A stretch of DNA of 64,000 nt from Octopus vulgaris (taxonomy: Eukaryota): NCBI GenBank assembly GCA_951406725.2, contig OX597814.1, forward strand, positions 114,080,001 to 114,144,000, given 5' to 3'. The notes under the pieces were generated by a model. That model was not told the DNA's origin. It did no database searches and saw only the letters and a program-made list of their open reading frames with translations. A program made the position numbers and the translations under genes. Shown piece after piece: positions 6,856-63,606 of the stretch (position 1 is its first letter; each line of letters opens with the position of its first letter).

Positions 6856-6893
6856 CAGTACCGGTTTCGGTCATTTTGAGACCTTTTCAACTG
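6856..6893 (-). ncRNA. Hammerhead ribozyme motif with U3:A8 core pair, at the Penelope 3' end
   Basis: Minus strand CAG-UUGAAAA-GGUC ucaaaau GACC-GAAA CCGG U A-CUG. Confidence 0.75.
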
Positions 6894-7268
6894 TAACGAT
6901 TAAATAATTAAATTTAGAAAAATTAAAAGAAAAGTTTTTTTAAAGGAATATTTGTATAGTGTTCAAATATAAGTGGCATTCTGCCTTTCTCTGTCTCCCT
7001 TGTTTGCACTTGTGTGTTCGAGGTCGTTGTGAATTCTTGGTAGGGTAGAAGAAGAAGAAGAAGGTTGATGAGGAGAGGGGGTGGAAAAATTTGGGAGTGC
7101 CTTGATTGTCGTATTTTGAATGGTCAGTGACGGCTAGCAGTTGCAGTTCAATTCAGGAGAATATTTCTATTGAAAGGTTTGTTTATGGAATTTGCGTAGG
7201 TGTTATACTAAAAAGCATTAGAAGGTGGAGCAGAAGAAGAAGAAGAAGAAGAAGAAGAAGAAGAAGAA

Positions 7269-7313
<45 letters not shown>

Positions 7314-7543
7314 AATGACGACGACGACGACGACGATGATGATGATGATAATGATGATGAAGAAGAAGAGGAAGAAGAAGAAAAAAGAGAAGGGAGAATA
7401 TAAATGAGTGGAAGTAGTGAGGTGTTGTATGACTTGAAGTTGGCACGTTATGGATTATAGCTGTGATTGGGGCTGATTTGTAATGGATTCTTTGGAATGT
7501 AATATTTGCGTGTGTATTTCAGTTATTCTAAAGCTGAGGTGTA

Positions 7544-7990
7544 TTAATCGTTTGTCGTAGACCTGTTAAGAAGTGGCCTGTATTTTGTAATAAAGAGAGT
7601 TTCTTTACTTATTCGTTGTCTCGAGGTTGTATCGTCCCTAAATTGGTAGAGGGGGAAAATCCTGAAGCCTGGTGTTTTGTTGGCGCAAGTATCTATATGT
7701 TGGCTGAAAGCTATTTTTCTGTTTTGGGGAATTTTTATCTGGGATCTGTGCAGGGCCATTCTTTTACGCAAACTATTTTTTGTTTGGCCTATGTACTGCT
7801 CTTGACACCCAGAGCAGGTTAGTGTATATATCAGGTTCTCCGAAGCACATGTGAAGTTGCTTTTCACTGTAAACCGTTGTCCCTGTTTGAAGGAGAACTC
7901 TGATCCCTCAATTAGATAATCGCATATCCCGCAATTGGGTCTTCCACATTTTTTTACTGTCGGCTTCTGTGTTGAAGAGTGTATTCGGGC
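7544..7990 (-). pseudogene. Penelope-type GIY-YIG endonuclease, frameshifted from upstream linker ORF 7954-8250
   Basis: FTCASENLIYTLTCSGCQEQYIGQTKNSLRKRMALHRS...HIDTC...KETLFITKYRPLLN: LIY/YIG motifs with the conserved R, E and N. Confidence 0.9.
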
Positions 7991-8255
7991 TTAGGCTGTC
8001 TCTTGCTTTTTATGATCCTGTGTGTTTGGAGGATTGTGTTCATTCTGTGGTCTTTTTTTAGGAGGGGTATGTTGTGGAGGATGGTGCCGAAGGCTTCATT
8101 GTTGAGAGGGTTGTGTGTGGAGATGTATGGTAAGGCTTTTGGTCGTAAGTTTTTCTTTGATTTGGGAGGGAAAGTGAAGTCAACTGCAGTGTAATCTGAG
8201 CTCAGAGTGTAAATAGCCGGAAGAAATACTGCTATTTTTGTCCAAAACATTGATT

Positions 8256-8307
<52 letters not shown>

Positions 8308-9207
8308 CTGCTTTATGGAAATACACGTACTCCTGCCAAAATTCTATCTTTAAGATAGCGTGCTAGCGCTCTCTTATAGCACAATTAATTTGCAACAACG
8401 AACTAAAATGTTTGATTACTTCTATGTACTTTTAATGCGCTGTGTGACAAAATTGTAAGGAAGATTGGACTAAGATAAATTGCCAAACTATTTTATTCTC
8501 CATCATTTAAGTACAAAATTAACTTTCGTAAAAAAAAGAAAAAAAACCCAAAAGAATGCTAAATCAAGCTTTGAAAAGAACAAAAAATAAACGTTCACAG
8601 AAAATGAAATTTCGTATCAGGAAATTTCGTAAAAATGAGGACATCTAACGACGAGTCAAGAGTAAATTGCATCGTGTATTATGATGTTTTGCATATATCT
8701 TGATATTTTGTTTTTATAGAAGCTTTCTACTAAATTTAAATATAGATGCTGCAATGATGAACTAATGAGAACGATTCTACGTGGTCACTCGATCAGCTAC
8801 AAATCTCCGCTAGAACACTCCTTTATTCTCTTGTAAAATGAAAAGACATTTCGGATTATGCAGTTTTGCTTCGATAATTTGGTTTATTGATATTTCCACA
8901 TTAGATGTAAATATTATTGTAAATGCAGAGGAAAGAAAACTCCGAATGAACCGTACTTGTTTTCTTTGTATCGTCTATCTGGATGTTTTGTTATCCCTTT
9001 TTGTATCACCTAACTGTCTGGATGCTTTGCGTTCTTGTCCCATTTTGTAGTTTTATATATATATATATAGTGACGGGAGCTGTTAGGCGGGCAATTTAAG
9101 CTGGTCGTGTACATACGTGCATATATATGTATGTATAGGCATTCGTGTATATGAGTATATCGTGTGTTGTATATATATATATATGTATTTATGTGCTGTC
9201 TGAGTAT

Positions 9208-9266
9208 ATTCCACTGAAGAAGGCAGAGCATCTCTTATGCAAAGCCAGAAATCCAGGATCTGGAAT
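9208..9266 (+). ncRNA. Type-I hammerhead ribozyme motif with canonical core, in an element (~9070-9398) between (TA)n tracts
   Basis: AUUCCA-CUGAAGA-a-GGC aga GCAU cucuu AUGC aaa GCC-a-GAAA UCC a GGA U C-UGGAAU. Confidence 0.8.
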
Positions 9267-9395
9267 TGTTCAGTAAAATTTTTTTGCTAGTTTATTTTGT
9301 CTCTCTGTCTACTCTCCTAGTGCTATATGAACATTTAATGTGGCTTTAGGGTCAGGTTTTGACTGCTATTTCAGCATGGTAGTATCTCTCGGATA

Positions 9396-9443
<48 letters not shown>

Positions 9444-10566
9444 CGTACGTACACTTTGGTCTTTTATATGTAAGTATATATTTATCTAAATCTTGTACGA
9501 CTCTATTCTTTCATTCTATCCGCCCTTTCGCACTTATTTGTTCATTCCATTCTTCGTTCTTTCGTTCCGCCTCTCACATTTCCTTGCCTTCTCTTCTTGC
9601 TCATTTTCCTCCTCTTTCACATCACTGTGTCCCTGTCATTGTTTCTCGCCCCTCCTTAATTCTTCTGTCCCTCTGCCTCTACCTCTCTCTCTCTTCTCTC
9701 CCCACGTGACCAGTGTTTGGCCAAGCCTGATCTTTCTTTCTTGGTTCGGCTGTCGTCCGTGCAACATCTATATTCCTTCCTGTGCCTGTGAAATCTTGCA
9801 TCCCTGCCACACACGCCAGCTTAATTTGATTCGACTTTAGTCGAAAGACACCTGTTGTTATGTCCTGTTATTTGTATTTGTGTAACATTCTCTGTTTTCT
9901 TTTCGTCCTTGTTTTCGTATACATTCGCTGCTCTCTTCCAAGGAATCTAATGCTCTTAGCTTAGTTTTTCCTTGGGGTTGGCCACATTGGAGCAATCTCG
10001 AGTATAACCAGCCGAAATTGCAAATATTATTTCCGCTGCTTTAACGTTTCTGCCAGCTTGCTGCCCTTTAATGATGATGATGATGATGATGATGATGATG
10101 GTGATGAGGATGAGGAGGAGGAGGAGGAGGAGGAGGAGGAGGAGGAGTTGTTTAATATGAGCTAACCTGGGTTAAACAACAACTGCTATTATACCTTGAA
10201 AATTAAAATGGTGTCCGTTCTCAATTGCACAGCATTCATTCAACCAACCACATAATAAATGGCGGTCATAAATGTCTCAAGGAACCATAATTTTTACCTA
10301 TTTTATGTATAATATTGATTTCTATCTCACTAAGGCCATCTCTTTAAGGAGAAGTGTGTTCGGTTGAATCCCTCACTCAAATATGTCTTCGTTATTTATC
10401 TAACTCATTGCAGAATAAAAGTTAAACGGAAATTGCATGAGTTACAGTGGGTAAATTCTCGAGCAAGCAATGTGCAATAGTTAACCCATCATGTCTTTGC
10501 AAAGTCTACGTATCTTTTTCTGGTATTTTTTATATTTTTGTCGAAAATGATTCTTTATCTCAACAT

Positions 10567-10982
10567 AGGCGTAGTAGTGGCTGTGTGGTTAGTAGCTTGC
10601 TTACCAACCACATGGTTCTGGGTTCAGTCCCACAGCGTGGCAACTTGGGCAAGTGTCTTCTACTATAGCCTCGGGCCGACCAAAGCCTTGTGAGTGGATT
10701 TGGTAGACGGAAACTGAAAGAAGCCAGTCGTATATATGCATATATGTATGTGTGTATGTGTGTGTGTATGTGTGTGTGCCTGTGTTTGTCCCCCAACATC
10801 GCTTGACAACCAATGCTGGTGTGTTTACGTCCCCGTAACTTAGCGGTTCGGCAAAAGAGACCGATAGAATAAGTACTAGGCTTACAAAGAATAAGTCCTG
10901 AGGTCGAATTGCTCGACTAGAGGCGGTGCTCCAGCATGGCCGCAGTCATCTGACTGAAACAAGTAAAAGAGTAAAAGAGAGT
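10567..10982 (+). mobile_element. SINE family A
   Basis: Near-identical to 812-1260. Confidence 0.9.
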
Positions 10983-11127
10983 ATAGCTAATTCCGATACT
11001 CGCTAAAGACCAGAGTATCCATCTTGCAACACTAATTACAGTTTTGCCTCCGCAATTCAGGTAGTAATTACCCCAGAGTTTTAGATTAACTAGGTTAGAA
11101 TACCGTTGTGTTTAATATTATTATTAG

Positions 11128-11893
11128 TTCGTCCATCGCTGTCGGCGATGACCAAGGACATCACATGGGAGAAGAAGACGGGGTACGGTGTGTCCGGCTG
11201 TGGTCAATCAGTCCAATGTATGCTCGGAACGCTCTGCCGCAGGTCAAGCACAGGTGGTCAGTTGAGACTGAAAGCGAAGAGTCGCCTCTGGACTTGCCTT
11301 ACAGCCATTCTTTTTGTGCCCTTGCAATTCTTATTTCTTTATTGCCCACAAGGGGCTAAACATAATGAGACAAACAAGGACAGACAAACAGATTAAGTCG
11401 ATTACATCAACCCTAGTGCGTAACTGGTACTTATTTAATCGACCCTGAAAGGATGAAAGGCAAAGTCGACCTCGGCGGAATTTGAACTCAGAACGTAACG
11501 GCAGATGAAATACCGCTAAGTATTTCGCCCGGCGTGCTAACCTTTCTGGCAGCTCGCCGCCTTAAACTATCTAACTCATCGCAGAATAAAAGTTAAACCG
11601 AAACTGTATGAGCTACAGTGGGTAAATTCCCGAGCAAGTAGTGTGCAATATTTAACCCATCATGTCTTTTCAAAGTCTACGTATCTTTTTCTGTTTTTTT
11701 TTTCTTTTTTTTTGTCGAAACTGATTCTTTGTGCCCTTGCAATTCTGTTCTGTTCGTTGAAGGCGGTACCTCAGTTGGTGCAGCTTCGCCAGGTAAGGTG
11801 GACTTGTGCTTGTGTTTCACAGTTATCAGAGTTGATCTCAAAGCTCTTCAATAGCGTTTTGTGTCTTTGAAGCCCTTTTTCTGTACACCTTGC
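11128..11893 (-). mobile_element. RTE LINE 3' end (ORF2 C-terminus with C2H2 finger), interrupted by insertion 11332-11727
   Basis: Minus translation ...LKSFEINSDNCETQAQVHLTWRSC...NEQNRIARAQK...CLTCGRAFRAYIGLIDHSRTH. Confidence 0.8.
11332..11561 (-). mobile_element. tRNA-derived SINE, family B (tail TGTCCTTGTTTGTC...GCCCCTTGTGGGCAATAAAGAAATA)
   Basis: Head GGCGGCGAGCTG..., B box GAGTTCAAATTCC, central GTCGACTTTGCCTTTCATCCTTTC..GGTCGAT..AAGTACCAG domain. Confidence 0.9.
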
Positions 11894-13404
11894 ATTTAAC
11901 ATTTACAGTGTATAAACGACTCTAGGTGTAATATTTTGTAACAAACACACTTCTCAAAGAGACTCTATTGTGTTAAAAACACAGAACTTTGTTCAGAACG
12001 GTAGTGAGTCACTAGACACAAAGCTTCTATCTGATTTGGTCTCCACAGTAACGAATATCCAGAACGTTCTGAGCTAAACCCCAAAATGATTGTTCTGATA
12101 TAGAAATTGGCAAACAGAATATTTGTTGATACGTGTGAATGGAAGTCGGACTAAATGAGATTAATATATGCACTTGAAACAACCTTAGATTAAAATACCT
12201 GTGTGTATTCAAATTCATAATGTGTACACAAATATGGAACGGTAAAGGTGCAATATTTTATCTGAGAAACATTTCATAGAGGCTTTTATGCTCCACGTTT
12301 GTATACAGGTAATAAATTCACATAATAAATGTTTATACACATTGATAGTTCAATTTAAGGCTGTTTCAAGTGCGATTATTTCATTAAGTTGGGGGTTTTA
12401 TTATCAATTTAGGCAAACTGTATTTGCTTCTACAAACAACGCTTATACAAATCAGTTGTTATCTTCAGCCAATTCATATTTTGCGTATTCTTTAATCATG
12501 CATTGTATGTTGTGAGCGTGTGTGTTGTTGTTGTTGTTGCTGCTGCTGTTGTTGTTATTGTTGTTATGTTTTGAGTTGATTCTAAATGTTCAACTAATGT
12601 TTCTATTATTACTAACCACTTTAAAATATTCTGTTATTAATAACATCAAAAATGGCTAAGCAGATTCCATTTTTAAGTTCTGCTAACCCACCGGTAAAAA
12701 CTACCGAGCGACTCTGTACGTTCTGAATTCAAATCCTGTCGTCGTTGGCTTTGCTCTTCATTCTCACAGAATCGGTCACGCAAAGTACCAGTGAAGTACT
12801 GGAACCGATTTAACCAGCTAATCTTATCCGCCAAATCTGTAAGCCTTGTGTCTAGATTAAATGCAATAATACTCGAATTAAGTCTGTCATCACAAGTGTA
12901 GATCTAATTCCAGTTTTCTTCCCCCCTTTTTTTTATTCTATAGGAAAAAAAATGTAAGTATAAATATAAAAAAAACAGGGCATGGCAAAAGTTTTGTCAT
13001 ATTAATTACATGAAGATACCATTACCATCTTCCTGACCACACAAGTACCAAACTAATGTCTTTATAAAATATCTTTCATGTCTTATATGGCCATTCTTAT
13101 GGAACATACCTCCCTTATCTCCTCTGTGTCACATACTCCCTCCACTGCTACCCTAGGGTAGGTCTCGATACATCTCCAACACTATCTATTTCTCTCTCTC
13201 GCCTCTTCACTTTGTCTCTCAATCTTTCTCTTTAACTGTCTCTTTCTCCACCTTTCTTTTCCTACTGAGGTAGCCAAGTATCTCCTCTATAATAAGACAC
13301 CCATCTCTAGTCCTCTATTATACTTTAATCTCTCAACTGGCACAAAGCCATTTCCCTCAGTTTCACGCCCTTCTGCAGCTGAAAGGTCTTCGCCTCAAAA
13401 ATTA

Positions 13405-13624
13405 ATTGGTGACCCTGCTGGTGCCGGTTCCACGTAAAAAGACACCACTGTTGGTGCCACATTAAAAGCACTCAGTAGACCCTGTAAAGTGGTTAGCATT
13501 AGGAAGGGCATCTAGCCGTAAAAACAATGCTAAAGCTCTCCAGCTTGTCAGCTCCTGTCAAACTGTACAACCCATGCCACCTTAGAAGAAGGACGTTAAA
13601 TGATGATGATGAATATAATGATGA

Positions 13625-13640
<16 letters not shown>
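13405..13640 (+). mobile_element. RTE-derived 3' tail element ending GGACGTTAAA(TGA)n
   Basis: Matches the 3' UTR of the RTE at 37826-38466; related copies near 38995, 43060, 55060, 60240 and 63870. Confidence 0.75.
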
Positions 13641-13658
<18 letters not shown>

Positions 13659-15283
13659 GGTGGTGGTGGTGGTGGTGATTGGTGTGGCAGGTATCAATGG
13701 TGTTTTCATGTAGCTAATGTGGGAGGGTTCTTTACTTTTTACTGCACCTTGTATCTCGGGGGAAATGGTTTCCCTCGCTAATATTAAACGAAATCAACTT
13801 AGTAACTGAGTGCAATGGGTTCTTATTATAACATATTTCAAATTCCATTTTAAACATGACTAATCAGCGTATAAAGATATTAAATGCATCTCTGTTCTAG
13901 AATGATGGATTGATTTAACAGATGAATTGACAAATGGGCGCCGTACATTCTGTCGCTTCGCAGAATGGCAGAAAGACTTCGTACAAAGTGTACTGGTCAA
14001 CATAACTTGCAAAGCTGGACAAGATATTTACCTCGAAAAGTAGCAAAACACTCTACTAAAACGAAGTTACCAAGCGCCATAAAATGTTTTGCAATTGATA
14101 TACAAAGAACAAAATAGTTTAAGAGAAATATGTACTCCACTTACAAAGTCATCAAAAACCACGAAAAGACATGCAACGCTGTCGTAAAGCTGCTCCATCA
14201 ATTTGAAACATCTTGTTCAGATTCCCAATTTAAAACGGTGGTCTAATTATATTTCTATAAAAGGCATGATCAGCTCCGTGAATTTAAGTATATCGCCATA
14301 AAAGGCATTAACGACATAAAAGGCATAACGACTTAAAAGAAGTTGTATGAATTCCCGCCAGACTGTATTTTCGAAGGTTCTAGAAACTTTGCTGGACGTT
14401 ATAAAAAACAAGAACATTGAGCCCTAAAATAGGTTCACGTCAGGTGCAACATGGAACTCTGTCGTTAGTTCCATAAAATATACTCTTATTTTCTTCTGCC
14501 TGTTTTGCATAACATACTTTTATTTCATGTTCATTAAAAAATAGACAAATCTTGTGTGTAATACCGACGTACATACATACATACGTACAAATCTTGAGAA
14601 ATTAGGTTTCTCAAAACCAGAAAGGAGAAAGCTAATTCGAAAACTACAGATCTTTTCCATCACTGGAACTGTAAAGATCTGTAAAACTTTCCAGAAGTTT
14701 ATCATTGAAATATATATGAGCATATCTAGATATGCAACTATATGCATGAGAATACATAAAGCAAAACTTAAAAATCTGCACATACATACATACATACATA
14801 CATACATACATACATACATACATACATACATAACCTGTTGTTGATGTTGAAATTCCACTGAAGGAGCAATGTCTTTCTAGAAGACATCCCTGAAAGTATA
14901 TTGGTTTCCACATTTCAGCCCAATGCCAGTAATATCGGTGGTGGCGGGATGAGTTGATTACATCGAGCACAGTGATCAACTAGTACTTAGCTTATCAACC
15001 CTGAAAGTATGAAAGGCAAATTTGACCTTGGCAGAATTTGAACTCAGAGCGTAAAGACGGACAGAATGTCGCTAAGCATTTTGCCCGACGTGCTCTCGAT
15101 TCTATCAGGGCACACCCTCATTCTTGAACGTAATTTCTAAGCAAAATATCAAACTGGAATTGTACATGTGTGTAAGGTTTTATAAGACCTACACTGATAA
15201 CATCGGAGGACATTATGGACATAAAGTTACGCTGCTGCCAACCGTTATAAGAAAAATGCATGTAAGAAAGTTTTTTCTACTCA

Positions 15284-15665
15284 AGCACAAGGCCCGAAAT
15301 TTTGGGGGAAGGGACCAGTCGATAGATTGACCTCAGTGCGTAACTGGTACTTAGTTTATCGACCCCTAAAGGACGAAAGGTAAAGTCGACTACGGCAGGA
15401 TTTCAACTTAGAACGTAAAGACAGACGAAATACCTATTTCTTTACTACCCACAAGGGGCTAAACACAGAGAGGACAAACAAAGACAGACAAACGGATTAA
15501 GTCGATTATATCGACCCCAGTGCGTAACTGATACTTAATTTATTGACTCTGAAAGGATGAAAGGCAAAGTCGACATCGGCGAAATTTGAACTCAGAACGT
15601 AGCGGCAGACAAAATACGGCTAAGCATTCCGGCCGGTGTGCTAATGACTCTGCCAGCTCGTCACC
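15284..15665 (-). mobile_element. Composite family-B SINE (two units)
   Basis: Minus-strand junction AAAGAAATA|GGTATTTCG near 15434. Confidence 0.85.
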
Positions 15666-16289
15666 TTAACGTATATTAGAAATTGAAAATCTTAACAGCA
15701 GAAAAAAATATAATGTTGCACAGACTGTACTCATTAGAAAATGTCCTACGTATTGAAATATTGCTCATTTTAGTTAATAAAAAGAATGTTAGAAGATTCT
15801 TCTCTGTAAATGGGAAAGAAATAACGAAACAGAATACTTCCTAACTATTATTATAAGAAATAAATATATATTTCTCTCTCTCTCTATGTCTGTCTGGTTA
15901 GCAGGTACTTACGGCTATTTCCGCGAGCTAAATATTTCTTATCTTCTCCAATTTACGCAAACTAGGAAACCATATTCTACTGCATTGATGATTTGAAGAA
16001 GATTTTCGATAGATCTTGGAACTGATTTTTAAAAGCTGTTCCGTAGCGAACTTCAAAAATAATCAATATTCGAGATTGGATGTGGCAACAAAAGTACTTC
16101 CTCCAGAAGATAATTGTCCTGAAGCGGTGGCTTATTGAAGAGGTTGTAAGTTCTGAGTGGCTTGGGACTCACACAATCAAGATGTATGATATATATATGC
16201 CTGCGACTTCAGAATACTTCTCTCTGTGTGGAAGTAATTTCTTTGTAATATCACAGATATATTGGGAGCTTGAAAGGTTTCTGCTCATG

Positions 16290-16469
16290 TGCAAGTACAT
16301 ACGCACGCACACATACACACACACACACATACACATACAAACACACACACACATATATATTTACATTCACACATGTATGTGTATGTGTCTGTATATGTAT
16401 GTATATATATATATACACACATATATATACATGTATTTATATGCACACACATATATACACATGCATATA

Positions 16470-16537
<68 letters not shown>

Positions 16538-16689
16538 ATATACGTGTATATGTATGTATGTATGTATGTATGTATATTGATAGACAACATGCAAACGTAA
16601 TTTGCATAAACACACGCATTATTTTACATATATATGCACATATATGCATATACATGCAAATATATATGTGTGTATGTGTGAGTATATAT

Positions 16690-16727
<38 letters not shown>

Positions 16728-16765
16728 ACATACATATATATATGTATGCATATATATATATATAT

Positions 16766-16830
<65 letters not shown>

Positions 16831-16938
16831 CATATATGTATGCATATATATATACACATATGTATGCATAAATGTATATATACATACATATTTACGTCTG
16901 CATACAGACCCCTTCACACACACACACACATATACATG

Positions 16939-16990
<52 letters not shown>

Positions 16991-17060
16991 TACATACATA
17001 CATACATACATACATACATACATACATACATACATACATACATACATACATACATACAAC
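16290..17060. repeat. Degenerate (TA)n/(CA)n/(CATA)n microsatellite field
   Basis: Directly visible; source of many spurious YIYI/MYVC ORFs. Confidence 0.95.
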
Positions 17061-17597
17061 CGTCCGTACACGTACGTACAGCAGTACTCAGAATTCTCAG
17101 TAGATTCGAGGAGAAAGAAAAATATCTCCCTGATATCCCATCCTCCCCTTCCCACAAATTCTTACAGCATTGTCGTCACTTGATACAAGTTTTATTTCAT
17201 ATTTTGAAAGAGCTTTCAAGTTACGTAACTCAATGATGACTTTTTTCTTTAACTCAACAACGACCTCACCATGCACAATAAAATTCAAACTTCAATCGAC
17301 AACAAGAAAGGCTATTCTGTTATTTTGTCATATTTTATCATCTACACATCTACTTATTTATCTACGCATTCATCTCTGTCTTTCCTTTTTTCTTCGCTTC
17401 TATATAGTCGTTAGTTATTGTATTTTCCAGCGTTGAGGAAAGGCCGATTTTTTACCTTTTACCTTTCGTAAAATTAATTCAGAAAAATCTTTCTGCGCTT
17501 TCTGGTAGATGGCTGCTATATTTTTCGTATGACGATTTTAATCCCAGACAAAGATAGAAAGAATATCTTTATCAAACTTACTGTATCTTCTTATATG

Positions 17598-17688
17598 CAA
17601 TATTCCCTCGACTATCGCGGGTGTTACGTTCCAAACCCTGCCCCGTGATAGGTGAAAATCTGCGAAGTAGAAACAGTACCGTACTGTA

Positions 17689-17731
<43 letters not shown>

Positions 17732-17840
17732 TGTATATATTTATTTTATTAATAAATGCAAAACAACACCACGGAAGAATCGGGGTAAGCTTAAATAATA
17801 AACCGCGATAGGTGAACCGTGATATGGCGAGGTATTACTG
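17598..17840. mobile_element. pogo/Tigger-type MITE with internal (TAT)n
   Basis: TIRs CAATATTCCCTCGACTATCGCGG / CCGTGATATGGCGAGGTATTACTG followed by TA. Confidence 0.7.
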
Positions 17841-17863
17841 TACACACACAGACACACACACAG

Positions 17864-17898
<35 letters not shown>

Positions 17899-18901: not shown

Positions 18902-18938
<37 letters not shown>

Positions 18939-19519
18939 TATTTTATTTATTTTAGTCACTGGACTGCGATCATGCTGGGATACTGATTTGAAGGGGTTAG
19001 TCGAACAAATCGACCCAGAACTTTTTCAAGCTTGTTACATATGATATCGTATTCTTATGACGTGTCGCTAGATTACGGGGATGTAAACAAAACAACACCG
19101 GTTACCAAATGGTGCTGGGGACAGAAGTAAACACAAACACAACGACACACACATAGACAGACACACACACATGTGTATGTGAGCATGCATATGTATTCTT
19201 TTATTATTATATTACTTGTTTCAGTCATTAGGATTGTAGCCATGCTGGAGCACCAATTTGAAGAATTTTAGTCGAAAGAATCATCTCCAGTGCTTATTTT
19301 TAAAGCCTAGTACTTATTCTGTTGGTCTGACGAGGTTCTTTTAGTTTCCGTCAACCAAATCCTACACAAGGAACTGGTCGGCCAGGGGCCATAGCAGTAG
19401 AAGACACTTGCCCAAGATGCCACACAGTGAGGCTGAATCTGAAACCCTGTCACTGGGAAGCAAATTTCTTCTCTATACACCCACACCTATGCGTGCGCAT
19501 GCACGTACACACATATAGG

Positions 19520-19915: not shown

Positions 19916-19919
19916 TTAC

Positions 19920-20203: not shown

Positions 20204-20246
<43 letters not shown>

Positions 20247-20514: not shown

Positions 20515-20545
<31 letters not shown>

Positions 20546-20601
20546 TAGCCTCTCTCTTTCTCTCTCGCTCTTTGTCTATATATATAGTGAGAGCTAGATA
20601 G

Positions 20602-47019: not shown

Positions 47020-47234
47020 ATTTACATTCTTTACATTTGACAGATATTTGTCCTCATCTTGTTTGTTGTTAACACTTTTCAGCTGATATACCCTCCAGCC
47101 TTCATCAGGTGTCTTGGGGAAATTTCGAATCTGGGTTCTCATTCATAAGACATTTTACAATGTTATTATTATTATCATTATTATTCAGGTCGGAATCTTG
47201 GGGTTAGTAGCCTGCGCTCTTAACCACAACGCCA
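47020..47234 (-). mobile_element. tRNA-headed SINE carrying a hammerhead core (47072-47112)
   Basis: Minus strand GGCGTTGTGGTTAAGAGCGCAGGCTACTAACCCC...ACAC-CUGAUGA-A-GGCUG gaggguauau CAGCU-GAAA a-GUGU. Confidence 0.7.
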
Positions 47235-52542: not shown

Positions 52543-53014
52543 CCCTTTTGTTACCAACCCGGCTGAAACCAGCTCTGGCTCTGAGTACAAATGTCTTGTT
52601 TTCATAAGTTTTGAATTAAAATCTTCCACCAAACCTTAGTCACAATTTATGTTCCTAACACTAACTGAATGATAACCAAGTTATTTTACGAAATTCTTTG
52701 TTATATTTAAAGTAATTGAAAGAGATACAGAGCATCTCAACAGAAATATGGTAACAAAAGGGTTAAAATATATAATAGAGAAACAATTCTTAACCCTTTT
52801 GTTACCAAACCTGGCTGAAACCAGCTCTGGTTCTGAGAACAAATGTCTTGTTTTCATAAGTTTTGAATTAAAATCTTCCACCAAACCTTAGTCACAATTT
52901 ATGTTCCTAACACTAGCTGAATGATAACTAAGTTATTTTACTAAATTCTTTGTTATATTTAAAGTAATTGAAAGAAATACAGAGCATCTCAAAATAAATA
53001 CAGTAACAAAAGGG
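52543..53014. mobile_element. Two tandem piggyBac-type MITEs (52543-52762 and 52794-53014)
   Basis: TTAA-CCCTTTTGTTAC ... GTAACAAAAGGG-TTAA, twice. Confidence 0.9.
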
Positions 53015-54118
53015 TTAAAATATATAATAGAGAAACAATTTTTAAACCATCACAGAAATCTCCTGACTGAATGGAATCATTTTCAATGATACCATTCCTT
53101 ATAATTCTTCATCTTTCAGCATTATGATCAGCTCATTTTTGTGAACAACCAGTATTTTTAAATGATGCCTACACATGTTCTACATTAAAAAATATAACAT
53201 CAGTTCAGCATACATGATGTTTCGAAAACAGTCTCTTTATTTCATACACGCCAGATATCATCTAAATATTTCGACAACCACAAACTATTTATTTACACTA
53301 ATCTTTTAACCCGAAAACACATGCATTGCTGTTTTTCTAGTTTTTAAAGAATTTTCTTCATTCTTTATAAATTTCCTTTTCTGTTTGTAAAGCCAGCTTC
53401 TCTAAAAGGAGGGGAAATTTTCACAGTACATCCAGCTGATCTCAATAAGAAGTACCAAGTTTGAGAAAACCGAAATCTAAATTATAAGCCGGCATTGAAT
53501 AAGCCTTTTATTCTTCTAAGTCAGGTAATTTTTCAATGAAGCAACGCTGCTATTACTATGCAAAAAGTGCTATTAAATTGCTCCTCCTGGAAACAAAATT
53601 ATAGCAGTTATCCTTCACATGGGAAAAAAGAAAAACTATTGTTACTAAAAGCTACAATGTTGTTTAGATCCAAACCTACACATTGTTATTATTATTATTA
53701 TTATCATTACTATTTTTTTCAACTATTCCTATCACTTTCGATGATAGAATATCAATAATGGCTTTCTAAAAATAGCAAAAGTTTGTCTGAATACAACTGG
53801 GTGAGATAAAAAAAAAAATGCGTTTCAAACAATGAAGATTATTATTATTATTATTGGTGAAAATGCTTGTTTACCAACGGAGAATTGAAAAGGAAAATAT
53901 TGGCTTAGTTTTTCAGCAAGCTGATTATTATCGTGAAACGAAACAATAATACGTTTTGAGAAAAGAAACTACTTGTTAATTCACACTTCTTAAATGTGGG
54001 CACAAAATAAAGAGCTTTAAATATCTAGGGTATATTATTAGTAGAAGATGAAGCTTTGTCAGTGGTAACTTACTTTCGTGTTTCTGTTCAAGCAACTATA
54101 TATATAGATGTGTGTTTG

Positions 54119-54172
<54 letters not shown>

Positions 54173-54307
54173 GGAGATGTACTTGCATAGCAAGTGACCT
54201 GATCTGAGATCGTGTGCTGGAATGAAAACAATTGCACCATGGAAGGTGTTTATAAGCCATTTAAGAAACACAAAAACTGTTAGATTCACTTCAACATTTA
54301 AATTTAA

Positions 54308-54358
54308 TTTGCCAAAATATTTTCGTCGCTTTGAGACCACGACATGTTCACCAACAAA
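54308..54358 (-). ncRNA. Hammerhead motif with G3:C8 core pair in an element (~54172-54365)
   Basis: Minus strand UUUGUUG-GUGAACA-u-GUCGU ggucucaaa GCGAC-GAAA AUAU U U-UGGCAAA. Confidence 0.65.
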
Positions 54359-56644
54359 ATTCCATGCTATATATACACTATGGAATTTATTTATATGATA
54401 TGGTCGTATATTGGGTAAATGTGTTTGAAAGTTGTGGTTTCTTTGGTTTGTTTGTTCCCAAACAACACTTATTTTAGTGCTGGTGACACCACCGGATTGA
54501 ATGGTACTGTCCAGGTGTCGAAACCATAATGATATCTGTGGGGCAGCTGATGATGGAGGTATCTTGGATTGTTGATACGACTGTTTTTGTATATACGGAT
54601 TAGTATTATTGGATTGTTGGTATGACTGTGGAATAGTTTTATAACACATCCTTTTAATATATATATATGTATATGTAAAGGTGCGTGGCTTAGTGGTTAG
54701 GTCATTTGACTCACAATCATAAGTTCATGAGTTCAATTCTTGGCGATGCATTGTGTCCTTGAGCATTACACTTTATTTCCAATTGCTCCAGTCCACTCAG
54801 CTGGCAAAAATGAGTAGTAACTGTATTTCAAAGGCCAGCCTTGTCACATTCTGTGTCATGCTGAATCTCCCTTTTTTTTATATCTTCTAACACAGAGGTT
54901 CTCAAACTTTTTGGACCACTGTCCTCCTCATGGCCACATAATACCTTCAGTGCCCCCACCCCTATTTTTATGTATAAATATATATTTTATATTTTACTAA
55001 TTTATATACACTATGAATCATTTGATATTTGATATATTATATAATATGTCAGCATCGCCTTACTGGCACTTATGCCGGTGGCACATGAAAAACATTTGAG
55101 CGAGGTCGTTGCCAGTACCGCCTGACTGGCCCTCATGCCGTTGGCACGTAAAAGTGGTTGGTATTAGGAAGGGCATCCAGCTGTAGAAACTCTGCCAGAT
55201 CAGATTGGAACCTGGTGCAGCCATCTGGTTCGCCAGTCCTCAGTCAAATCGTCCAACCCATGCTAGCATGGAAAGTGGACATTAAACAATGGTGATGATG
55301 ATGATTGTATATAATTCTATAATAATACTATAAATTCATAGTGCTCTCCAATCCACTGCCTTTCTCCCAATGTCCTTTAGTCGAACAAATCGACCCCCAG
55401 GACTTATTCTTTGTAAGCCTAGTAGTACTTATTCTATTAGTCTCCCTTACTGAACCGCTAAGTTACGGGGGCGTAAACACACCAGCATTGGTTGTCAAGT
55501 GATCGTGGCAGGGACAAACACACATGTATATATATGACGGACTTCTTTCAGTTTTCGTCTACCAAATCCACTCACAAGGCTTTGGTCAGCCAGAGGCTAT
55601 AGTAAAAGACACTTACCCTAGGTGCCATGCAGTGGGACTGAACCCAGAACAATGTGGTTGGTAAGCAAACTACTTACCACACAGTCACTCCTGCACCTAC
55701 TTAAGAATTCATACTTTCGAAAGAATGTAAAATGATGTATTTTTTGTTAATGGTGAATATTTCAAGCAAATGCTGAAGCCATAAACAAGAGCATATAAAC
55801 ATAAGGTTGAAAAACTCTTCTGGAAAGAAAAATCCATAGGACTTAAACCTACATTTCTTGTAGATGTGACGGGTGTTTTATTTATAGCTTTATCATTTAC
55901 CACACAGGAAGGAATTATTTAATGTTTTCTTGAAGTCTATAAGTTCTTAGTAATTCAAAAGCATACAATGTCTCCAAAATGGATTTCTTTGTTTTTATGG
56001 TAGAACACCTGTTTACCTAAACCAAGAAAAAAGTAACACAAGGTCTGTACATGTGCTTTAGCTCTTTAATTTATTTTAGCCATCATGTCTAAGGTCATAC
56101 TGGAGCACCACCTTCATAAAATAGTAGTAGTAGTAGTAGTATAGGAGCAGGCACTAACAGTGCATCCACTGTTTGTTGAGGATTCCTCACTAATCCTGGC
56201 AGGTGATGCCTTTGCACTACTCAGGTGACAATCCTCCAACCCATGGGTCTGTTTGGGTCATCGTGGCCAGTGAGGGTTTTACGGGGCTGGAATGCAAATC
56301 CTACCTCAACCACTTTTGGTCACATTTTTATGACACGCAGCAGCAGAAGCATTGGGTTTATTCTTTTACATGCCAGTCCCCATCCCCCACACAACACACA
56401 AAGAATAATGGTCACTCCATATTTACATTTGGTTTTTGGTTCACCAAGGATTTCAGTAATTTTAACAATGGACTGGCAGTATCCTTAAAATGTTGGACAA
56501 AATGCTCTACAGTAATTAGCCATGGCACTTTTCATTCTGAGCTTAAATCCACCCAAGCTTAATTTTATCTTCCATCTTTCTGGGATCTGTACAATAAAAT
56601 ACCACAGGCAACCTTTAGCCATTTCTATCCAAAAGGGTCTTTAA

Positions 56645-56866
56645 CCCTTTAGTGTTTAAACCGGCCATATCCGGCCAAAAGTATTCTGCCTGTTTTATGT
56701 TCAAACTGGCCAGATCTGGTCTCTCACACCAACCCTACAATATCTTTTAAAAAATTAACAGCTACCTCATCAGAATCTCATAGCTACAAGATTAATGAAT
56801 AATTAGTTCAAAACAAAGTGGATAAAAAAGGATTAATTTTGGCAGAATAATGTGAACACTAAAGGG
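56645..56866. mobile_element. piggyBac-type MITE
   Basis: TTAA-CCCTTTAGTGTT ... AACACTAAAGGG-TTAA. Confidence 0.85.
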
Positions 56867-57513
56867 TTAAACCCAATTTCGACATGCTTTGAGATCCACT
56901 ATTCCAAAAAAGACATTCATATACATGACAGGCTACCAAATTCACTCACAAAGCATTGGTCAGCTACAATAGAAGACATTTGTTGAAGATGCCACACAGT
57001 AGGACTGAACTTGAAAACACATGGTTGCAAAGTAAGCTTCTTAACCACACAGCCAAGCTTATTGGATTGCTTTGACTTTTTCCTCTATTTCTTTTTGGTG
57101 TTGTTTTATCCAATTTGACTCAGCAGCATTTGCTCTATTCTCTGTAACCTTCCACCATTGTTTGCAATTAGTCACTCTTTTCTCCCACACACTTGCTCTC
57201 AGATCACCTGTTCCATCTGAAATGTCATCTCACTACAGAGAACAGCCTTGGGTATCCTAGAGTTCTCTATATTGAGAACACACACACACACACACATATA
57301 TATTTGCAGAAAGATAAATTTTATTCGATGTGTAGATACTAAACAGTATATGTATATATGACAATTATTCGGTAGTACATTTACAAATAAATACCTCTAT
57401 TTACATAATATCGAGGTCTTTTTTCATTTTGTTGTTTTACCATTTTTATCAACATTTATATATATATATATATAAAATACCTGTACATCATCTCCAAACC
57501 TTCTAATATATAT

Positions 57514-57880
57514 GACTTGTTTCAGTCATTTGACTGTGGCCATGCTGGAGCACCGCCTTTAGTCAAGCAAATTGACCCCAGGACTTATTCTTTGCAAGCC
57601 TAGTACTTATTCTATCAGTCTTTTGCCGAACCGCTAAATTACGGGGACGTAAACACACTAGCATCAGTTGTCAAGTGATGTTGGGGGTACAAACACACAC
57701 ATACATACATATATACGACGGGCTTTTTTCAGTGTCCGTCTACCAAATTCACTCACAAAGCTTTGGTCAGCCTAAGACTAGAGTAGAAGACACTTGCCCA
57801 AGGTGCCACGCAGTGGGACTGAACCTGGAACCATGTGGTTGGTAAGCAAGTTACTTACCACACAGCCACTCCTGCGCCTA
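57514..57880 (-). mobile_element. SINE family A
   Basis: Homology to 812-1260; another copy at ~55375-55697. Confidence 0.85.
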
Positions 57881-57889
57881 TATATATAT

Positions 57890-58339
57890 AAGGATAAAAT
57901 CCTTATTTTATTAAAAGCAGAAAAATTTTCCAGCAGCCAGCCATGAAGATCAAACTCACACCCCTCCTATATCTGGTTGGAATGCTGTACCATTTAAGCT
58001 AAATCGCCTGACCGCCAAACTCTTCTGCAATTTTAGAAGTTGTAGAATTATCCAGAAATGGTAGATGTCCTATGTAAACAAACAAGTTTGTTTTCTAAGC
58101 ATTGAAATGTATTGCAGAACAAGCAGAAAAATAAATTTTATTCAAAGCGTATATATACTGAACAGTATATATACAAAAGATAAAAATGATTCTAAAACTT
58201 TTAAAATTGCATAAGAGTTTGGCAGTTTAGCTTAAATGGTAGAGCATTCCAACTGGATATTGGAGGGTTGTGAGTTCATTCCTCATGGCTGGCTGCCAGC
58301 AAATTTTTCTGCTTTAAAAAAAAAAAAGGATTTTATCCT
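57890..58339. repeat. Inverted repeat (arms ~57890-58052 and ~58187-58339), each arm containing a tRNA-like cloverleaf
   Basis: Arms are reverse complements; right arm 58221-58297 folds with D, anticodon and T arms. Confidence 0.8.
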
Positions 58340-58353
58340 TTACATACATAGAC

Positions 58354-58727
58354 ACAGGAGTGGCTGTGTGGTAAGTAGCTTACTTACCAACCACATGGTT
58401 CCGTGTTCATTCCCACTGTGTGGCACCTTGGGCAAGAGTTTTCTACTATGGCCTTGGGCTGAGCAAAGCCTTGTGAGTGGATTTGGTAGATGGAAACTGA
58501 AAGAAGCCCGTCATATACAGGTGTGTGTTTATGTGTGTCTGTCTGTGTTAGTCCCCCTACCATCGCTTGACAACCGATGTTGGTGTGTTTACATCCCAGT
58601 ACCCTAGGGGTTCAGCAAAAAAGATCGATAGAATGAGCACTGGGATTACAAAGAATAAGTTTGACTAAAGGTGGTGCTCCAGGATGGCTGCAGTCAAATG
58701 ACTGAAACAAATAAATGAATAAAAGAG
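58354..58727 (+). mobile_element. SINE family A
   Basis: Homology to 812-1260. Confidence 0.85.
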
Positions 58728-58733
58728 TATATA

Positions 58734-60612
58734 TCTCTATATATAAAACTGAAATGCGTTTTTACCGCTTGGATCGCTTTCAAGGCCACTACATCCCGTC
58801 GGATTGACTCCAAAATTTACAGGGACATGTAAAATGAGGTGACGATGCCCGTCATAAAAAGTGTCATTGCTAGGGACAAAAACCCACTTTGACAAGTCCA
58901 CTCTGGTTCTTTAATGTATCTGTCTTCCTCAACTCACTATCGCTATTTCCTCTCTTCCCAGCACTTTTTCACTCACTCTATTTCATACATTCCCATTACT
59001 TTCACTTCCTCAAACGGCCTTCTTTTATGTATCTGTCTACATTCATAGAGAGAATTATCATCGCCACCGCCATCGCATTCTATTGTCTGCCCGTCAACGC
59101 GCCGACGGAGCAAATACAAACAGAACACACCAACCAGCGTTCGTGTTCTGGTGATAACGTAGGTTTTTCGTATCTATTACATTTTAACATTTATTTAGAA
59201 CCCCGCAAATTTTTCGTGATAAATTTTCATTTTTTACTACTTTATTATTTTTTCTTAAATTGATGCTTTTATTAAAATTAATTCTAATTGTCTGGGTCAA
59301 CAGTTAATTTCCTCGGAGGATATGGAAATTCCTATTACCCGCCAGAGAAATAACTCCAGCAGCTCACAACTATTTCAACAAAGACAAGGTTACCTGCTTA
59401 CCAGTCAAATTCAGCGTCAACGCTCACGTATGAGAGAGACTCCAACACACACACATATATACATATATATATATATATAATGTGTGCATTATGTGGTCGG
59501 TTGAGCTGAAAATATGCAGACCTATGTTAAAAGTGCTCGCAAGTTTGCATGACAACTATTTTTTCCCTCAAATGAAAGGCGTGACCTCTAGGACTAAATT
59601 CCTTATCTTATAAAATGTGGCCCCAGTAGACCCATGTGAAAAGGGTCTAAAATGGGGTTGGAAGGGGATTAAAATTTAAAGGAGCGGGTGTTTAGGAATT
59701 CTCTGTTACATCAAGCTAAAAAATTTGCGCCAGCCTTTTAATCATCAATGTGTTGCCGTCCATGATGAAGTTTTGAATGCTTGCCATGGTGAGTCTACTG
59801 TGAGAAAGAATCACTTCAAAACTTGGTGTTTAGGGATTTTCTTTTACATCAAGTTCAAAATTTTACGCCAGCCGTTAAACTGTCAAAACGTTGCTGTCCG
59901 TCATTAAGAAATGCCAGCCATGGTGACTCTACTATCCTCAGATTCTATCCCTTCAAACTTTGGTTTCCAATATTTTATTATTTTTATTCAGCTCACAAGT
60001 TCATCTGTCCCTTTTAAATGTTAGTGTTTTGCTGTCTGCCTTGAAGCAGACCTTTCCATTGTTACTGCCTGATATTTATGATTGATCTTTTTAAATATTT
60101 TATTTCTCAACTTACTCAAGTGTTGTTTATAAATGGGAGAGAGATAGATAAAGATAGAGAGTAAGAGAAAGCAAGGGAGAGTCCGAGAGAAAGGAAGAGT
60201 AAGAGAGTGGGGAAAGTGAGAGAGAAACAAAGAGGGAGAATCATCATCATCGTTTAACGTCCGTTTTCCGTGCTAGCACGGGTTGGACAGTTTGACCGGG
60301 GTCTGGGAGGCCAGGAGGCTGCACCAGGCTCCAGTCTGATCTGGCAGTGTTTCTACAGGTGGATGCCCTTCCTAACGTCAACCACTCTGTGAGCGTAGTG
60401 GGTGCTTTTTTCGTGCCGCCGGCACAGGTGCCAGTGGGGCTGGCAGCGGCCACGATCAGTTGATGCTTTTTACGTGCCACCAGCACAAAAGCCAGTCAAG
60501 GCGGCGCTGCAATCGGCCACGTTCGGATGGTGCTTTTTACGTGCTGAAAGGAAGCAACAGAAAGTAACAACCACACTCTTATCCGCACGTAGAGCGGGTC
60601 ACCTTCAGCTAG
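58734..60612 (+). mobile_element. Probable non-autonomous Helitron
   Basis: A|TCTCTATATATAAAAC 5' end; 3' hairpin CCGC acgtaga GCGG then CTAG|T; internal ~140 bp tandem repeat (59685-59950); nested RTE tail at 60241-60545. Confidence 0.6.
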
Positions 60613-61149
60613 TATATATATATATATTTATATTGTCAGCGCACCATATACTCAGCAACAGATAAGAGTACTCTCTCCCCTGTATATATTTCATTATTGC
60701 TCACAGGGGGCTAAACTTTAGAGGGGACAAACAAGAACAAAGGGATTAAGTCGATTACATCAACCCAAGTGCATAACTGGTACTTATTTAATCGACCCTG
60801 AAAGGATGAAAGGCAAAGTCGACCTTGGCAGAATTTGAACTCAGAACATAATCGCAAATGAAATACTGTTAAGCCTTTCTCCCAGCATGCTAACAGTTCT
60901 GCCTGCTCGCTGCCCTTCTCTCCCCTGTATTGTTTCTATTTATTTGCCAACCTTTTTACAACGTACACTGTGTTTTGTCATTGCACCAACACTATAATGC
61001 AGCCTTGTATCTAGCAAGACCAAAGAGTCCTCTTTAGGGTCTCTATTTGCTCAGCAATCATTTTACAGAGTGTACTAGATGCATTGCACACTAGATGCAT
61101 CAGCACTAAAGAGGTTGTTTTGCTCCCAGCATCACTATTTAATCTGTAG

Positions 61150-61699
61150 CAAGGGTTCTCGGCCATTTTTAACCTGTGGACCCCTTTGATTATTATTTTA
61201 TTCTGGTGGACCCCCAAAGCCATTCGATGTTTAAAATCTAGTTTTGTAGAAATTTCTTTCAAAATCCCTATTTTGTTTTTCACATTAATTTGTGTAGGTC
61301 GAACTATATGAAATGTTAGAGAAAGAAACCTAGCTGTTTCTTGCAATATATACCAATACATACATCTAAAGCAGGGGTTCTCAACCATTCTACAGGTCCC
61401 TTTCATTATCATTTTATTCTGGTGGATCCCCATAGCCATTCAATGTTTAAAATCTAGTTTTATAGAAACTTCTTTCAAAATTCCTATTTTGTTTTTTTAC
61501 ACATTAACTTGTGTAGGTTGAACTATGTAAAATGTTAGAGAAAAAAAAAACCCCAGCTGTTTCTTGTAATACATACCAATACAAACATCTAAAGTAAAAA
61601 TTTTTCAGGGGTTTCTTAAAATAATATTGTAGGCCCCTAATTTACTATCTCATTACTTGGACCCCAAAATGTTATATGGACCCCAGTTGAGAACCACTG
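61150..61699. mobile_element. hAT (Charlie-like) MITE with duplicated 5' ~220 bp
   Basis: CAGGGGTTCTCAAC at 61372 (variant at 61150) and GTTGAGAACCACTG ending at 61699. Confidence 0.8.
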
Positions 61700-62770
61700 T
61701 TATATAGTATTGCTATTTGTTTACCAGTACCTGATGTTTTAACCATGTAATCAGAAATCCAGAATAAATCTCTCAGCCATTTTTATCTTTGAGAAGTCAT
61801 CTGATATACTCTCGTAAAAAATGCAGCATGAAATTTTTCAATTTACAATTATAAATAATTAATATAAACTCTGCTATGTACGTTGAGCACTTCGCTTTCA
61901 TTTAAAGTTTCTACATCATATCATTTATTATAATATAATTTATGCAGATATAATACAACATAGTCAAAAATACTCATAACGTAAATAAAATGAAGTACAT
62001 ATGAAATAGATTTGAAAATGTTCCGTCAAATAATATTAATAAAAATATAGACAGAACAGCTACAAGATGTGAGCTAAGAAAATTTATGCTCTGTTCAAAA
62101 GAAAATAGGTTATAAGTATATAAATGGACACATATATATACAAATGCTAAAATGAATATATATATATACACAAATGAGTTATAAATAAATGTATTTCATA
62201 TTTTTAGCTTACATACATTTCAAGAACTTTGATCTTTGCCAAAAGGCTATTTTGTGTTTAAATATGTACATAAATATACACAGTAGTTTGCTGTATGACT
62301 TTGCTGCAAATTATTTCCATATCTTTTGAGAAATACTAGCATCTACTGGCATTAAATAATTCAAATATTTCAGAAAATGTACCATTAATAATCATATTTT
62401 AGCAACAGAATGGTTCAGACCTCTAATATGATTATTTTTGGTTTATCAACTTTCAACTTATTTCTCTGGCAATATGTGTCAATGCTATCAATCGGAATTT
62501 AACACTTTTGATACTATATTTCTCTTGAAACATTGTATTTCAATTAAATTTTTGAAAATATTGAAGAATTTAGTAAATAACTTTATTGTTGTTAAGCTAG
62601 AGTTTGGAGCATAAATTAACACGAAATTTTCGGTGGAAAAGTTTCAATGTGGATCACTTTAAAACAAGAGACATTTATCACAGGTCTGAGAGAGGTTGGT
62701 ATCAAAAGAGGTTAAGCTCAATAAAATAAACAACATGTAAAACAATTTGCCGCATTGTTAGATGTCAATG

Positions 62771-62956
62771 CTAAGTTTTTAGAACTTCTAATAACTTGTT
62801 GCAGTGATTAACCATTCCGTTTACTGTTCTGTCTCGAGGTGAAGGTTCCAAAGATATCTCTATCTTCTCGATATCCACAGGGTGAGATGCTGGCAAAGGT
62901 GACATAGTCTCCATCAATCTTGACAATAAGCTGGAGCCATTGTATAACACCACAGC
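62771..62956 (-). CDS. Terminal coding exon of an unidentified gene that extends beyond the right edge
   Basis: Acceptor CTGTTGTTTTTAG (phase 0); AVVLYNGSSLLSRLMETMSPLPASHPVDIEKIEISLEPSPRDRTVNGMVNHCNKLLEVLKT*; AT-rich downstream region with minus-strand AATAAA. Confidence 0.65.
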   Translation of the reverse strand, partial: AVVLYNGSSLLSRLMETMSPLPASHPVDIEKIEISLEPSPRDRTVNGMVNHCNKLLEVLKT

Positions 62957-63221
62957 CTAAAAACAACAGATGGGAACTGAATTTATTTCACATTAGCAAA
63001 CAACAAATTCATTTATAACAATAGTAAATTGGATTATTATTGATCATAGAAGTTGTAATTGATAACAACAGATATATGAAAAAAAACAAAAACTATCATA
63101 CGATGGATAATATAGAACAAAGGTATTAACAACAGTTGTCAATGTGAAAGCTATTAAGTAAAAGACAACAATGTTATAGTAACACAGAAATATATTTTTA
63201 GCACAGAATTTTGTCAGTGAA

Positions 63222-63557
63222 GGCACATGGCTCAGTGGTTAGAGCGTTGAGCTTACGATCGTGAGGTTGTGAGCTCGAATCCTGGACCGGGCTGCGTGTT
63301 GTGTTCTTGAGCAAGGCACTTTATTTCACGGTGCTCCAGTTCACTCAGCTGTAGAAATGAGTTGCGACGTCACTGGTGCCAAGCTGTATCGACCTTTGTC
63401 TTTCCCTTGGATAACACTGGTGGCGTGGAGAGGGGAGGCCAGTATGCATGGGCGACTGCTGGTCTTCCATAAACAACCTTGCCTGGACTTGTGTCTAGGA
63501 GGGTAACTTTCTAGGTGCAATCCCATGGTCATTCATGACCGAAGGGGGTCTTTACCC
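63222..63557 (+). mobile_element. Family-C-related SINE with 11-bp TSD TTGTCAGTGAA
   Basis: TSD at 63211-63221 and 63558-63568; tRNA-like head with B box GAGCTCGAATCC. Confidence 0.85.
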
Positions 63558-63606
63558 TTGTCAGTGAACAGGTTGTGGTCTCAAAGCGATGAAAATATTT
63601 TGACAA
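63558..63606 (+). ncRNA. Hammerhead motif with G3:C8 core pair (same family as 54308-54358)
   Basis: UUGUCA-GUGAACA-g-GUUGU ggucucaaa GCGAU-GAAA AUAU U U-UGACAA. Confidence 0.65.

What the first reader, a model, noticed from the sequence alone, without database searches (positions are those of the whole stretch)
6856..63606. Natural swaps of the hammerhead 3:8 tertiary pair: C:G, U:A and G:C all present
Seen: core CUGAAGA/CUGAUGA (C3:G8) at 9208 and 47072; UUGAAAA (U3:A8) at 6856; GUGAACA (G3:C8) in two independent copies at 54308 and 63558. Known: positions 3 and 8 form a tertiary Watson-Crick pair in the active fold, and compensatory double changes rescue activity. Inference: these are selected functional variants rather than decay, and standard CUGANGA searches would miss them.
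Basis: partly seen in the sequence, partly recalled or inferred. Interest (0 to 1): 0.8.

Follow-up and report, generated by a model that had tools for sequence, protein, structure and literature searches.

The report
Octopus retrotransposon hammerheads with swapped core
Several families of Penelope-type jumping genes in this octopus-like genome carry small hammerhead RNA motifs, predicted to be self-cutting, in which one paired core position differs by family (C:G, U:A or G:C); the G:C form is the norm in over 8,000 copies and is likely a weak but working variant, though cutting is untested.

Summary
All five cores are at the stated places. They are minimal type I hammerhead motifs in the terminal repeats (pLTRs) of Penelope-like retroelements (PLEs) or PLE-type repeats. 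The swaps are family consensus, not lone mutants. U3:A8: 99 of the first 100 of 1,830 matches. G3:C8: 1,901 of 2,138 in one subfamily and 97-98 of 100 in two younger ones (71, 80); 8,239 exact cores in the genome (93); no C3:G8 among 95 non-G3 copies. Related PLE lineages show C:G, U:A or G:C, always Watson-Crick (5 of 5). Corrections: the two G3:C8 copies are one family (94% identical), so one origin; the 47072 copy has lost its cleavage site; single copies decay neutrally. Against strict selection: a mispaired G3:G8 sub-lineage still made about 33 copies, and most copies keep the uncut motif. U3:A8 is published for Schistosoma PLEs and C3G/G8C rescue is published. I found no paper with G3:C8 as a natural family consensus, but a key paper was unavailable, and this scan had already noted natural G3:C8 in phages and in PLE-type elements of other genomes. 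Cleavage is untested.

The parts
6856..6896 (-). Minimal type I hammerhead motif, U3:A8 core (UUGAAAA), 4-bp stem II, palindromic stem III (ACCGGU), A17; predicted cut between 6859 and 6858
   Evidence: family of 1,830 matches, 99 of 100 listed identical core
6754..8167 (-). 5'-truncated Penelope-like element of the U3:A8 family: GIY-YIG piece (7547-7990), 3' UTR and pLTR holding the hammerhead
   Evidence: blastn to full-length relatives L132/L123; Pfam GIY-YIG 25.9 bits in the window piece, RVT_1 plus GIY-YIG in L132
9208..9266 (+). Hammerhead motif, C3:G8 core (CUGAAGA), 6-bp stem I, C17; an extra A on both sides of stem II is the family norm; link to a PLE not tested
   Evidence: 34 of 37 family matches C3:G8; extra A before GAAA in 21 of 21
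47072..47114 (-). Decayed C3:G8 hammerhead motif (CUGAUGA): stem III and cleavage site deleted relative to its family; link to a PLE not tested
   Evidence: 20 other copies held; commonest form has CGUU after GAAA
54168..54358 (-). Solo pLTR copy of the G3:C8 family; hammerhead 54308-54358, core GUGAACA at 54351-54345, U17; stem I weakened to wobble pairs
63558..63743 (+). Solo pLTR copy of the G3:C8 family; hammerhead 63558-63606, core GUGAACA at 63564-63570, extra G, 5-bp stem II, AAUAUU palindrome, U17; predicted cut between 63600 and 63601
   Evidence: linked to RT plus GIY-YIG ORF pieces about 1 kb upstream in other copies

Best explanation
These are hammerhead motifs in the terminal repeats of different Penelope-like retroelement families, and the family-wide G3:C8 and U3:A8 cores are likely compensated variants that would still cut, weakly and only as dimers. 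Shown: identity of the motifs, family consensus, link to RT plus GIY-YIG for the two variant families, Watson-Crick 3:8 in every recurrent family seen. Inferred: two motifs (the two pLTRs of one transcript, or two transcripts) would pair through the palindromic stem III (AAUAUU; ACCGGU) and cut after position 17, probably helped by the element's protein as reported for the anole PLE. The G3:C8 form is likely slow (G3:C8 gives only partial rescue in vitro; all A-U stem III; U17). Selection likely acts on long-lived source elements only and is loose enough for a mispaired side lineage to spread for a while. The window's copies are dead fragments.
For: Consensus counts. G3:C8 kept across three successive subfamilies while 5 columns of loop II changed; the only stem change is a U-A to U-G wobble (partly circular, since the patterns fix core and stems). 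Structure scan open to all 16 combinations at 3:8 over 1.55 Mb: 4 of 4 recurrent clusters have a Watson-Crick majority, and 15 of 20 singletons are Watson-Crick against 2.0 of 6.3 in shuffles. RT relatives at 47-58% identity: C:G (sister family, L295), U:A (L294, L299), G:C (this family), 5 of 5 Watson-Crick, permutation p 0.033. No other letter at 2% or more at positions 3 or 8 in 4 of 4 runs with four organism labels. C3G/G8C partly restores cleavage in a PLE hammerhead (PMC11167929).
Against: G3:G8 is over-represented: 53 of 2,138 and 33 of 315, against a background C-G transversion rate of 9 of 1,233. These copies have different flanks, include three ORF-bearing insertions with G3:G8 in both repeats and are derived. 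The core 20-mer upstream of the cut site (8,239) is nearly as common as a downstream 19-mer (10,178), and 1 of 203 held copies starts at the cut site (held set biased to core-bearing copies), so inserted copies mostly come from uncut RNA. PLE minimal hammerheads cut poorly in vitro (PMC4209133), and core mutants do not block insertion in vitro (PMC11167929). The five-lineage tree is poorly resolved, and no motif was seen in 11 of 14 metagenome loci.
Confidence: 0.62

Rival explanations
1. The G3:C8 motif is a catalytically dead or nearly dead relic. The swap was fixed long ago, perhaps when it still cut, and has since ridden along with source elements that do not need cleavage.
For: A G3:G8 lineage transposed dozens of times. 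Most copies keep the uncut motif. The young, intact sister family carries C at the normally invariant A9 in 48 of 49 held motifs. Cleavage is dispensable for insertion in vitro (PMC11167929), and Naiad PLEs lack hammerheads altogether (10.1101/2021.04.23.441226).
Against: The youngest large subfamily is again G3:C8 (98 of 100). All other core positions and both stems are intact in the commonest form while loop II drifts. Relatives show only Watson-Crick pairs.
Confidence: 0.27
2. The fold or sequence is kept for a non-catalytic job, such as an RNA handle or dimerisation site for the RT-endonuclease, or an internal promoter or splice element, and the 3:8 pair is kept for folding only.
For: The motif begins about 23 nt after the common 5' boundary of short copies, which looks like an initiator or 3' splice site. 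The anole PLE hammerhead needs the protein (PMC11167929).
Against: Purely catalytic core positions (U4, G5, A6, G12-A14, H17) are kept in all recurrent families. A DNA promoter would not predict Watson-Crick covariation between 3 and 8.
Confidence: 0.11

Closest known systems
Minimal dimeric type I hammerheads in pLTRs of metazoan Penelope-like elements (Cervera and de la Pena 2014, PMC4209133)
   Same: Location in pLTRs of RT plus GIY-YIG elements; short palindromic stem III; extra nucleotide after A9; G10.1-C11.1; frequent U17; mostly solo dispersed copies and inverted pairs; U3-A8 variant already reported (about 1,300 hits in S. mansoni).
   Different: G3:C8 as a family consensus is absent from the rows of their Fig. 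S3 alignment that I saw (consensus CUGANGAH); no cephalopod there.
Natural hammerhead core variants (Perreault et al. 2011, PMC3088659)
   Same: Natural C3-G8 to U3-A8 covariation.
   Different: The passages I saw report U3-A8 only; here the purine-pyrimidine swap G3:C8 is fixed in a family of more than 8,000 copies.
Engineered C3G/G8C double mutant, including the anole PLE PAc hammerhead (Frangieh et al. 2024, PMC11167929)
   Same: Same pair; singles dead, double partly active; protein-assisted cleavage.
   Different: Here the swap is natural, and the equivalent of the C3G single mutant (G3:G8) exists as a transposed sub-lineage.

Membership tests
Hammerhead ribozyme, type I | Core N3-UGA-N7-N8-A9 ... 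GAAA ... U16.1-H17 at a three-stem junction | tested here: met
   Met at 6856, 9208, 54308, 63558; not met at 47072, where stem III and UH are lost
Hammerhead ribozyme, type I | Watson-Crick pair between positions 3 and 8 | tested here: met
   All five copies; family majorities
Hammerhead ribozyme, type I | Score above an Rfam hammerhead gathering threshold | tested here: not met
   HH9 20.9 against 52 bits for 6856; no hammerhead listed for 63564 or 9214. A low score is expected for minimal PLE motifs (inference).
Hammerhead ribozyme, type I | Self-cleavage 3' of position 17 | not testable with these tools
   Only contigs, no raw RNA reads, were offered
PLE minimal (dimeric) hammerhead | Palindromic, very short stem III | tested here: met
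   AAUAUU (G3:C8 family), ACCGGU (U3:A8 family), near-palindrome at 9208
PLE minimal (dimeric) hammerhead | Lies in the pLTR of an element with RT and C-terminal GIY-YIG | tested here: met
   U3:A8 family. G3:C8 family: same-strand motif downstream of the ORF piece in 11 of 30 ORF-picked loci, RT pieces. Not tested for the 9208 and 47072 families.
PLE clade Neptune or Nematis | CX2-5CxxC linker between RT and EN plus phylogenetic placement | tested here: inconclusive
   Linker seen in both variant families (motif described); no tree with named references was built

The most novel reading that the evidence does not exclude
A marine-invertebrate PLE clade has repeatedly rewired the hammerhead core (C3:G8, U3:A8, G3:C8, and even C at position 9). 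The octopus G3:C8 family is an active, deliberately slow ribozyme fixed in more than 8,000 copies, with a naturally transposed G3:G8 mutant lineage that lets one test in genomes whether PLE transposition needs cleavage at all.
Probability: 0.4. Interest if true: 0.58.

Novelty: new variant of a known kind. Interest (0 to 1): 0.4.

Why it matters
It supplies natural, family-level support for the 3:8 tertiary pair in its least common orientation, in an animal genome and at high copy number. It shows that CUGANGA descriptors and Rfam miss thousands of motifs here. The role of PLE hammerheads is open, and this family offers matched natural alleles (G3:C8 against G3:G8; a C9 sister family with intact ORFs) for testing whether cleavage matters. 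It is not a new mechanism: the pair, its rescue and the U3:A8 variant are published.

Tried and rejected
Whole-window Rfam scan: no hammerhead among the 150 of 182 rows shown, mostly microsatellite noise. Monomer folding: stems I and II form in most copies, but z-scores are not significant; the self-duplex energies are not informative. A generic search for a second G3:C8 family with a CGCG stem III gave 3 matches against 1 control, so none was found; other stem III types were not searched. Compensatory subfamilies inside the G3:C8 family: only 4 Watson-Crick double changes among 95 non-G3 copies (3 A:U, 1 U:A), as expected from transitions. G3:G8 as an ancestral intermediate: rejected, it nests among younger copies. 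Expression: no RNA holder listed, contigs only, so cut ends could not be seen. 11 of 14 metagenome relatives showed no motif; several end before the 3' repeat. The RT tree of relatives is mostly unresolved. Literature searches for natural G3:C8 and for hammerhead plus octopus found no report. Lunse et al. 2017 (PMC5785218) and Przybilski and Hammann 2007 (PMC1986816) were not held, and either may bear on novelty. Supplementary file 1 of PMC4209133 could not be searched.

Full report
Observation. The five cores lie where stated. A structure scan that left positions 3, 7 and 8 free recovers 6856, 54308 and 63558 and 9208 as type I hammerhead layouts. The 47072 copy has the C3:G8 core and stem II but is 3 nt short after GAAA compared with its family, so stem III and the cleavage site are gone. 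The two G3:C8 copies are 94% identical solo repeats of one family. The genome is 2.8 Gb in 227 contigs. The best RT relative is named Octopus vulgaris in the database and its contig length equals C18, so the host is most likely that octopus (inference).

What they belong to. The U3:A8 motif ends a 1.4-kb 5'-truncated element (6754-8167, minus) with a GIY-YIG piece. Relatives such as L132 carry RVT_1 plus GIY-YIG and motifs in direct or inverted terminal repeats. For the G3:C8 motif, 11 of 30 loci picked by an ORF fragment carry it downstream on the same strand, mostly about 1 kb away. Longer copies show an RT with the YVDD motif, a Cys linker and GIY-YIG, 46-66% identical in pieces to an intact 1,311-aa sister ORF. 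Both are therefore Penelope-like elements, in unrelated families. The 9208 and 47072 repeats were not linked to an ORF here.

Are the swaps consensus? Patterns left 3, 7 and 8 free. U3:A8 family: 1,830 matches, control 0, 99 of the first 100 listed UUGAAAA. G3:C8 subfamily 1: 2,138 matches, 95 not G3 (none C3:G8) and 142 G3 with another base at 8, leaving 1,901 (89%). Subfamily 2: 315 matches, 97 of the first 100 G3:C8. Subfamily 3: 2,209 matches, 98 of the first 100. An exact 20-mer over the G3:C8 core occurs 8,239 times. In four public runs with four organism labels no other letter reached 2% at either position. The 9208 family is C3:G8 in 34 of 37.

Is it selection? Variation among copies of one family is neutral decay after insertion (CpG and transition bias), so only comparisons between lineages count. 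For selection: (a) across the three subfamilies five loop II columns differ, while the only stem change keeps pairing as a wobble (partly circular, as the patterns fix most of these positions). (b) In 1.55 Mb of held DNA, enriched by my own sampling for the two variant families, 4 of 4 recurrent clusters have Watson-Crick majorities (G:C 83 of 103, U:A 27 of 27, U:A 6 of 6, C:G 2 of 2); 15 of 20 singletons are Watson-Crick, against 2.0 of 6.3 hits in shuffles. (c) Among RT relatives at 47-58% identity the states are C:G (sister family; L295), U:A (L294; L299) and G:C, 5 of 5 paired. Two of these were read by eye, 11 of 14 metagenome loci showed no motif, and the tree is poorly resolved.

Against strict selection: G3:G8, the natural equivalent of the dead C3G single mutant, is too common for decay. 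It makes up 53 of 2,138 and 33 of 315 matches against a background of 9 of 1,233 (Fisher p 1.5e-4 and 3e-16). The subfamily-2 copies have different flanks, 27 of 33 lie on C16, three ORF-bearing insertions have G3:G8 in both repeats, and they nest among younger copies. A mispaired source was thus mobilised repeatedly; gene conversion is not excluded. Copies also do not start at the cut site: upstream and downstream words occur 8,239 and 10,178 times, and among 203 held copies 77 start 20-24 nt before the core and 1 at the cut site (biased set).

Mechanism. From established work: PLE minimal hammerheads have a stem III too short to fold alone, work as dimers and cut poorly in vitro (PMC4209133; main text parts 1-2 of 4 and part of supplement 2 read; review PMC6765202, passages). 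In the anole PLE, C3G and G8C each abolish cleavage, the double partly restores it, cleavage needs the protein, and mutants still insert in vitro (PMC11167929, passages; also PMC8495972, one passage). I infer that the G3:C8 motif pairs through AAUAUU with a second copy and cuts slowly after U17, trimming tandem or read-through transcripts, while most RNA that is copied into the genome escapes cleavage. Probability about 0.6; a dead relic about 0.27; a non-catalytic role about 0.1.

Comparison and novelty. It works like, and meets the testable features of, the known PLE minimal hammerheads. Natural U3:A8 is published (PMC3088659, passages; about 1,300 hits in S. mansoni PLEs, PMC4209133). G3:C8 appears in the papers found only as an engineered variant; searches found no natural report. 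Lunse et al. 2017, recalled as a survey of about 150,000 PLE-linked variants, and Przybilski and Hammann 2007, recalled as showing any Watson-Crick 3:8 pair can cut, were not held. Earlier notes of this scan describe natural G3:C8 in phages and single G3:C8-like motifs behind PLE-type RT genes in other genomes (unchecked by me); none exist for this genome or sequence. Other papers seen: 10.1101/2021.04.23.441226 (passages), 10.64898/2026.07.22.740005 (part 1 of 5), 10.1101/2024.12.09.627507 (passages).

Verdict. This is a new variant of a known kind: one high-copy G3:C8 PLE family, with an informative mispaired side lineage. Interest 0.4.

Noticed in passing
L272, L274, L292, L388 (G000:C19:14371000-14380900): A young sister PLE family with intact ORFs of about 1,311 aa in 4.6-kb tandems has a hammerhead-like motif with C3:G8 but C at the normally invariant A9, followed by an extra G (48 of 49 held motifs). 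The metagenome relative L294 shows the same C9-G with U3:A8.
   Followed up: partly
L368-L386, L394, L397 (G000:C16, mainly 1.7-10.6 Mb): The mispaired G3:G8 sub-lineage is concentrated on C16 (27 of 33), as are many ORF-bearing copies. Chromosome 16 of O. vulgaris is reported as the Z chromosome (10.1101/2024.12.09.627507); that C16 is this chromosome is assumed.
   Followed up: partly
L055:1469-1481 and relatives: Short G3:C8 copies start 20-24 nt before the core, at a site that looks like both a 3' splice acceptor (branch-like CTAAC, pyrimidines, AG) and an initiator. The roughly 200-bp solo repeats may be copied from short transcripts of an internal promoter.
   Followed up: partly
L387 (G000:C2:206156000-206165900), L389-L392: Tandem units of about 2.0-2.2 kb, 13 or more on C2, each with a head-to-head pair of one whole G3:C8 motif and one truncated motif; a young derivative with no RT match.
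   Followed up: no
window 9221-9251: The 9208 family has an unpaired A on both sides of stem II (extra A before GAAA in 21 of 21), so no pair closes the core next to G12.
   Followed up: partly
L155, L195, L206, L208: A second U3:A8 hammerhead family (CGCG stem III, C17), 6 of 6 held copies, and several more C3:G8 families.
   Followed up: no
window 58221-58294: Weak tRNA-like match (30.6 bits, cut-off 29), probably a tRNA-derived repeat.
   Followed up: no
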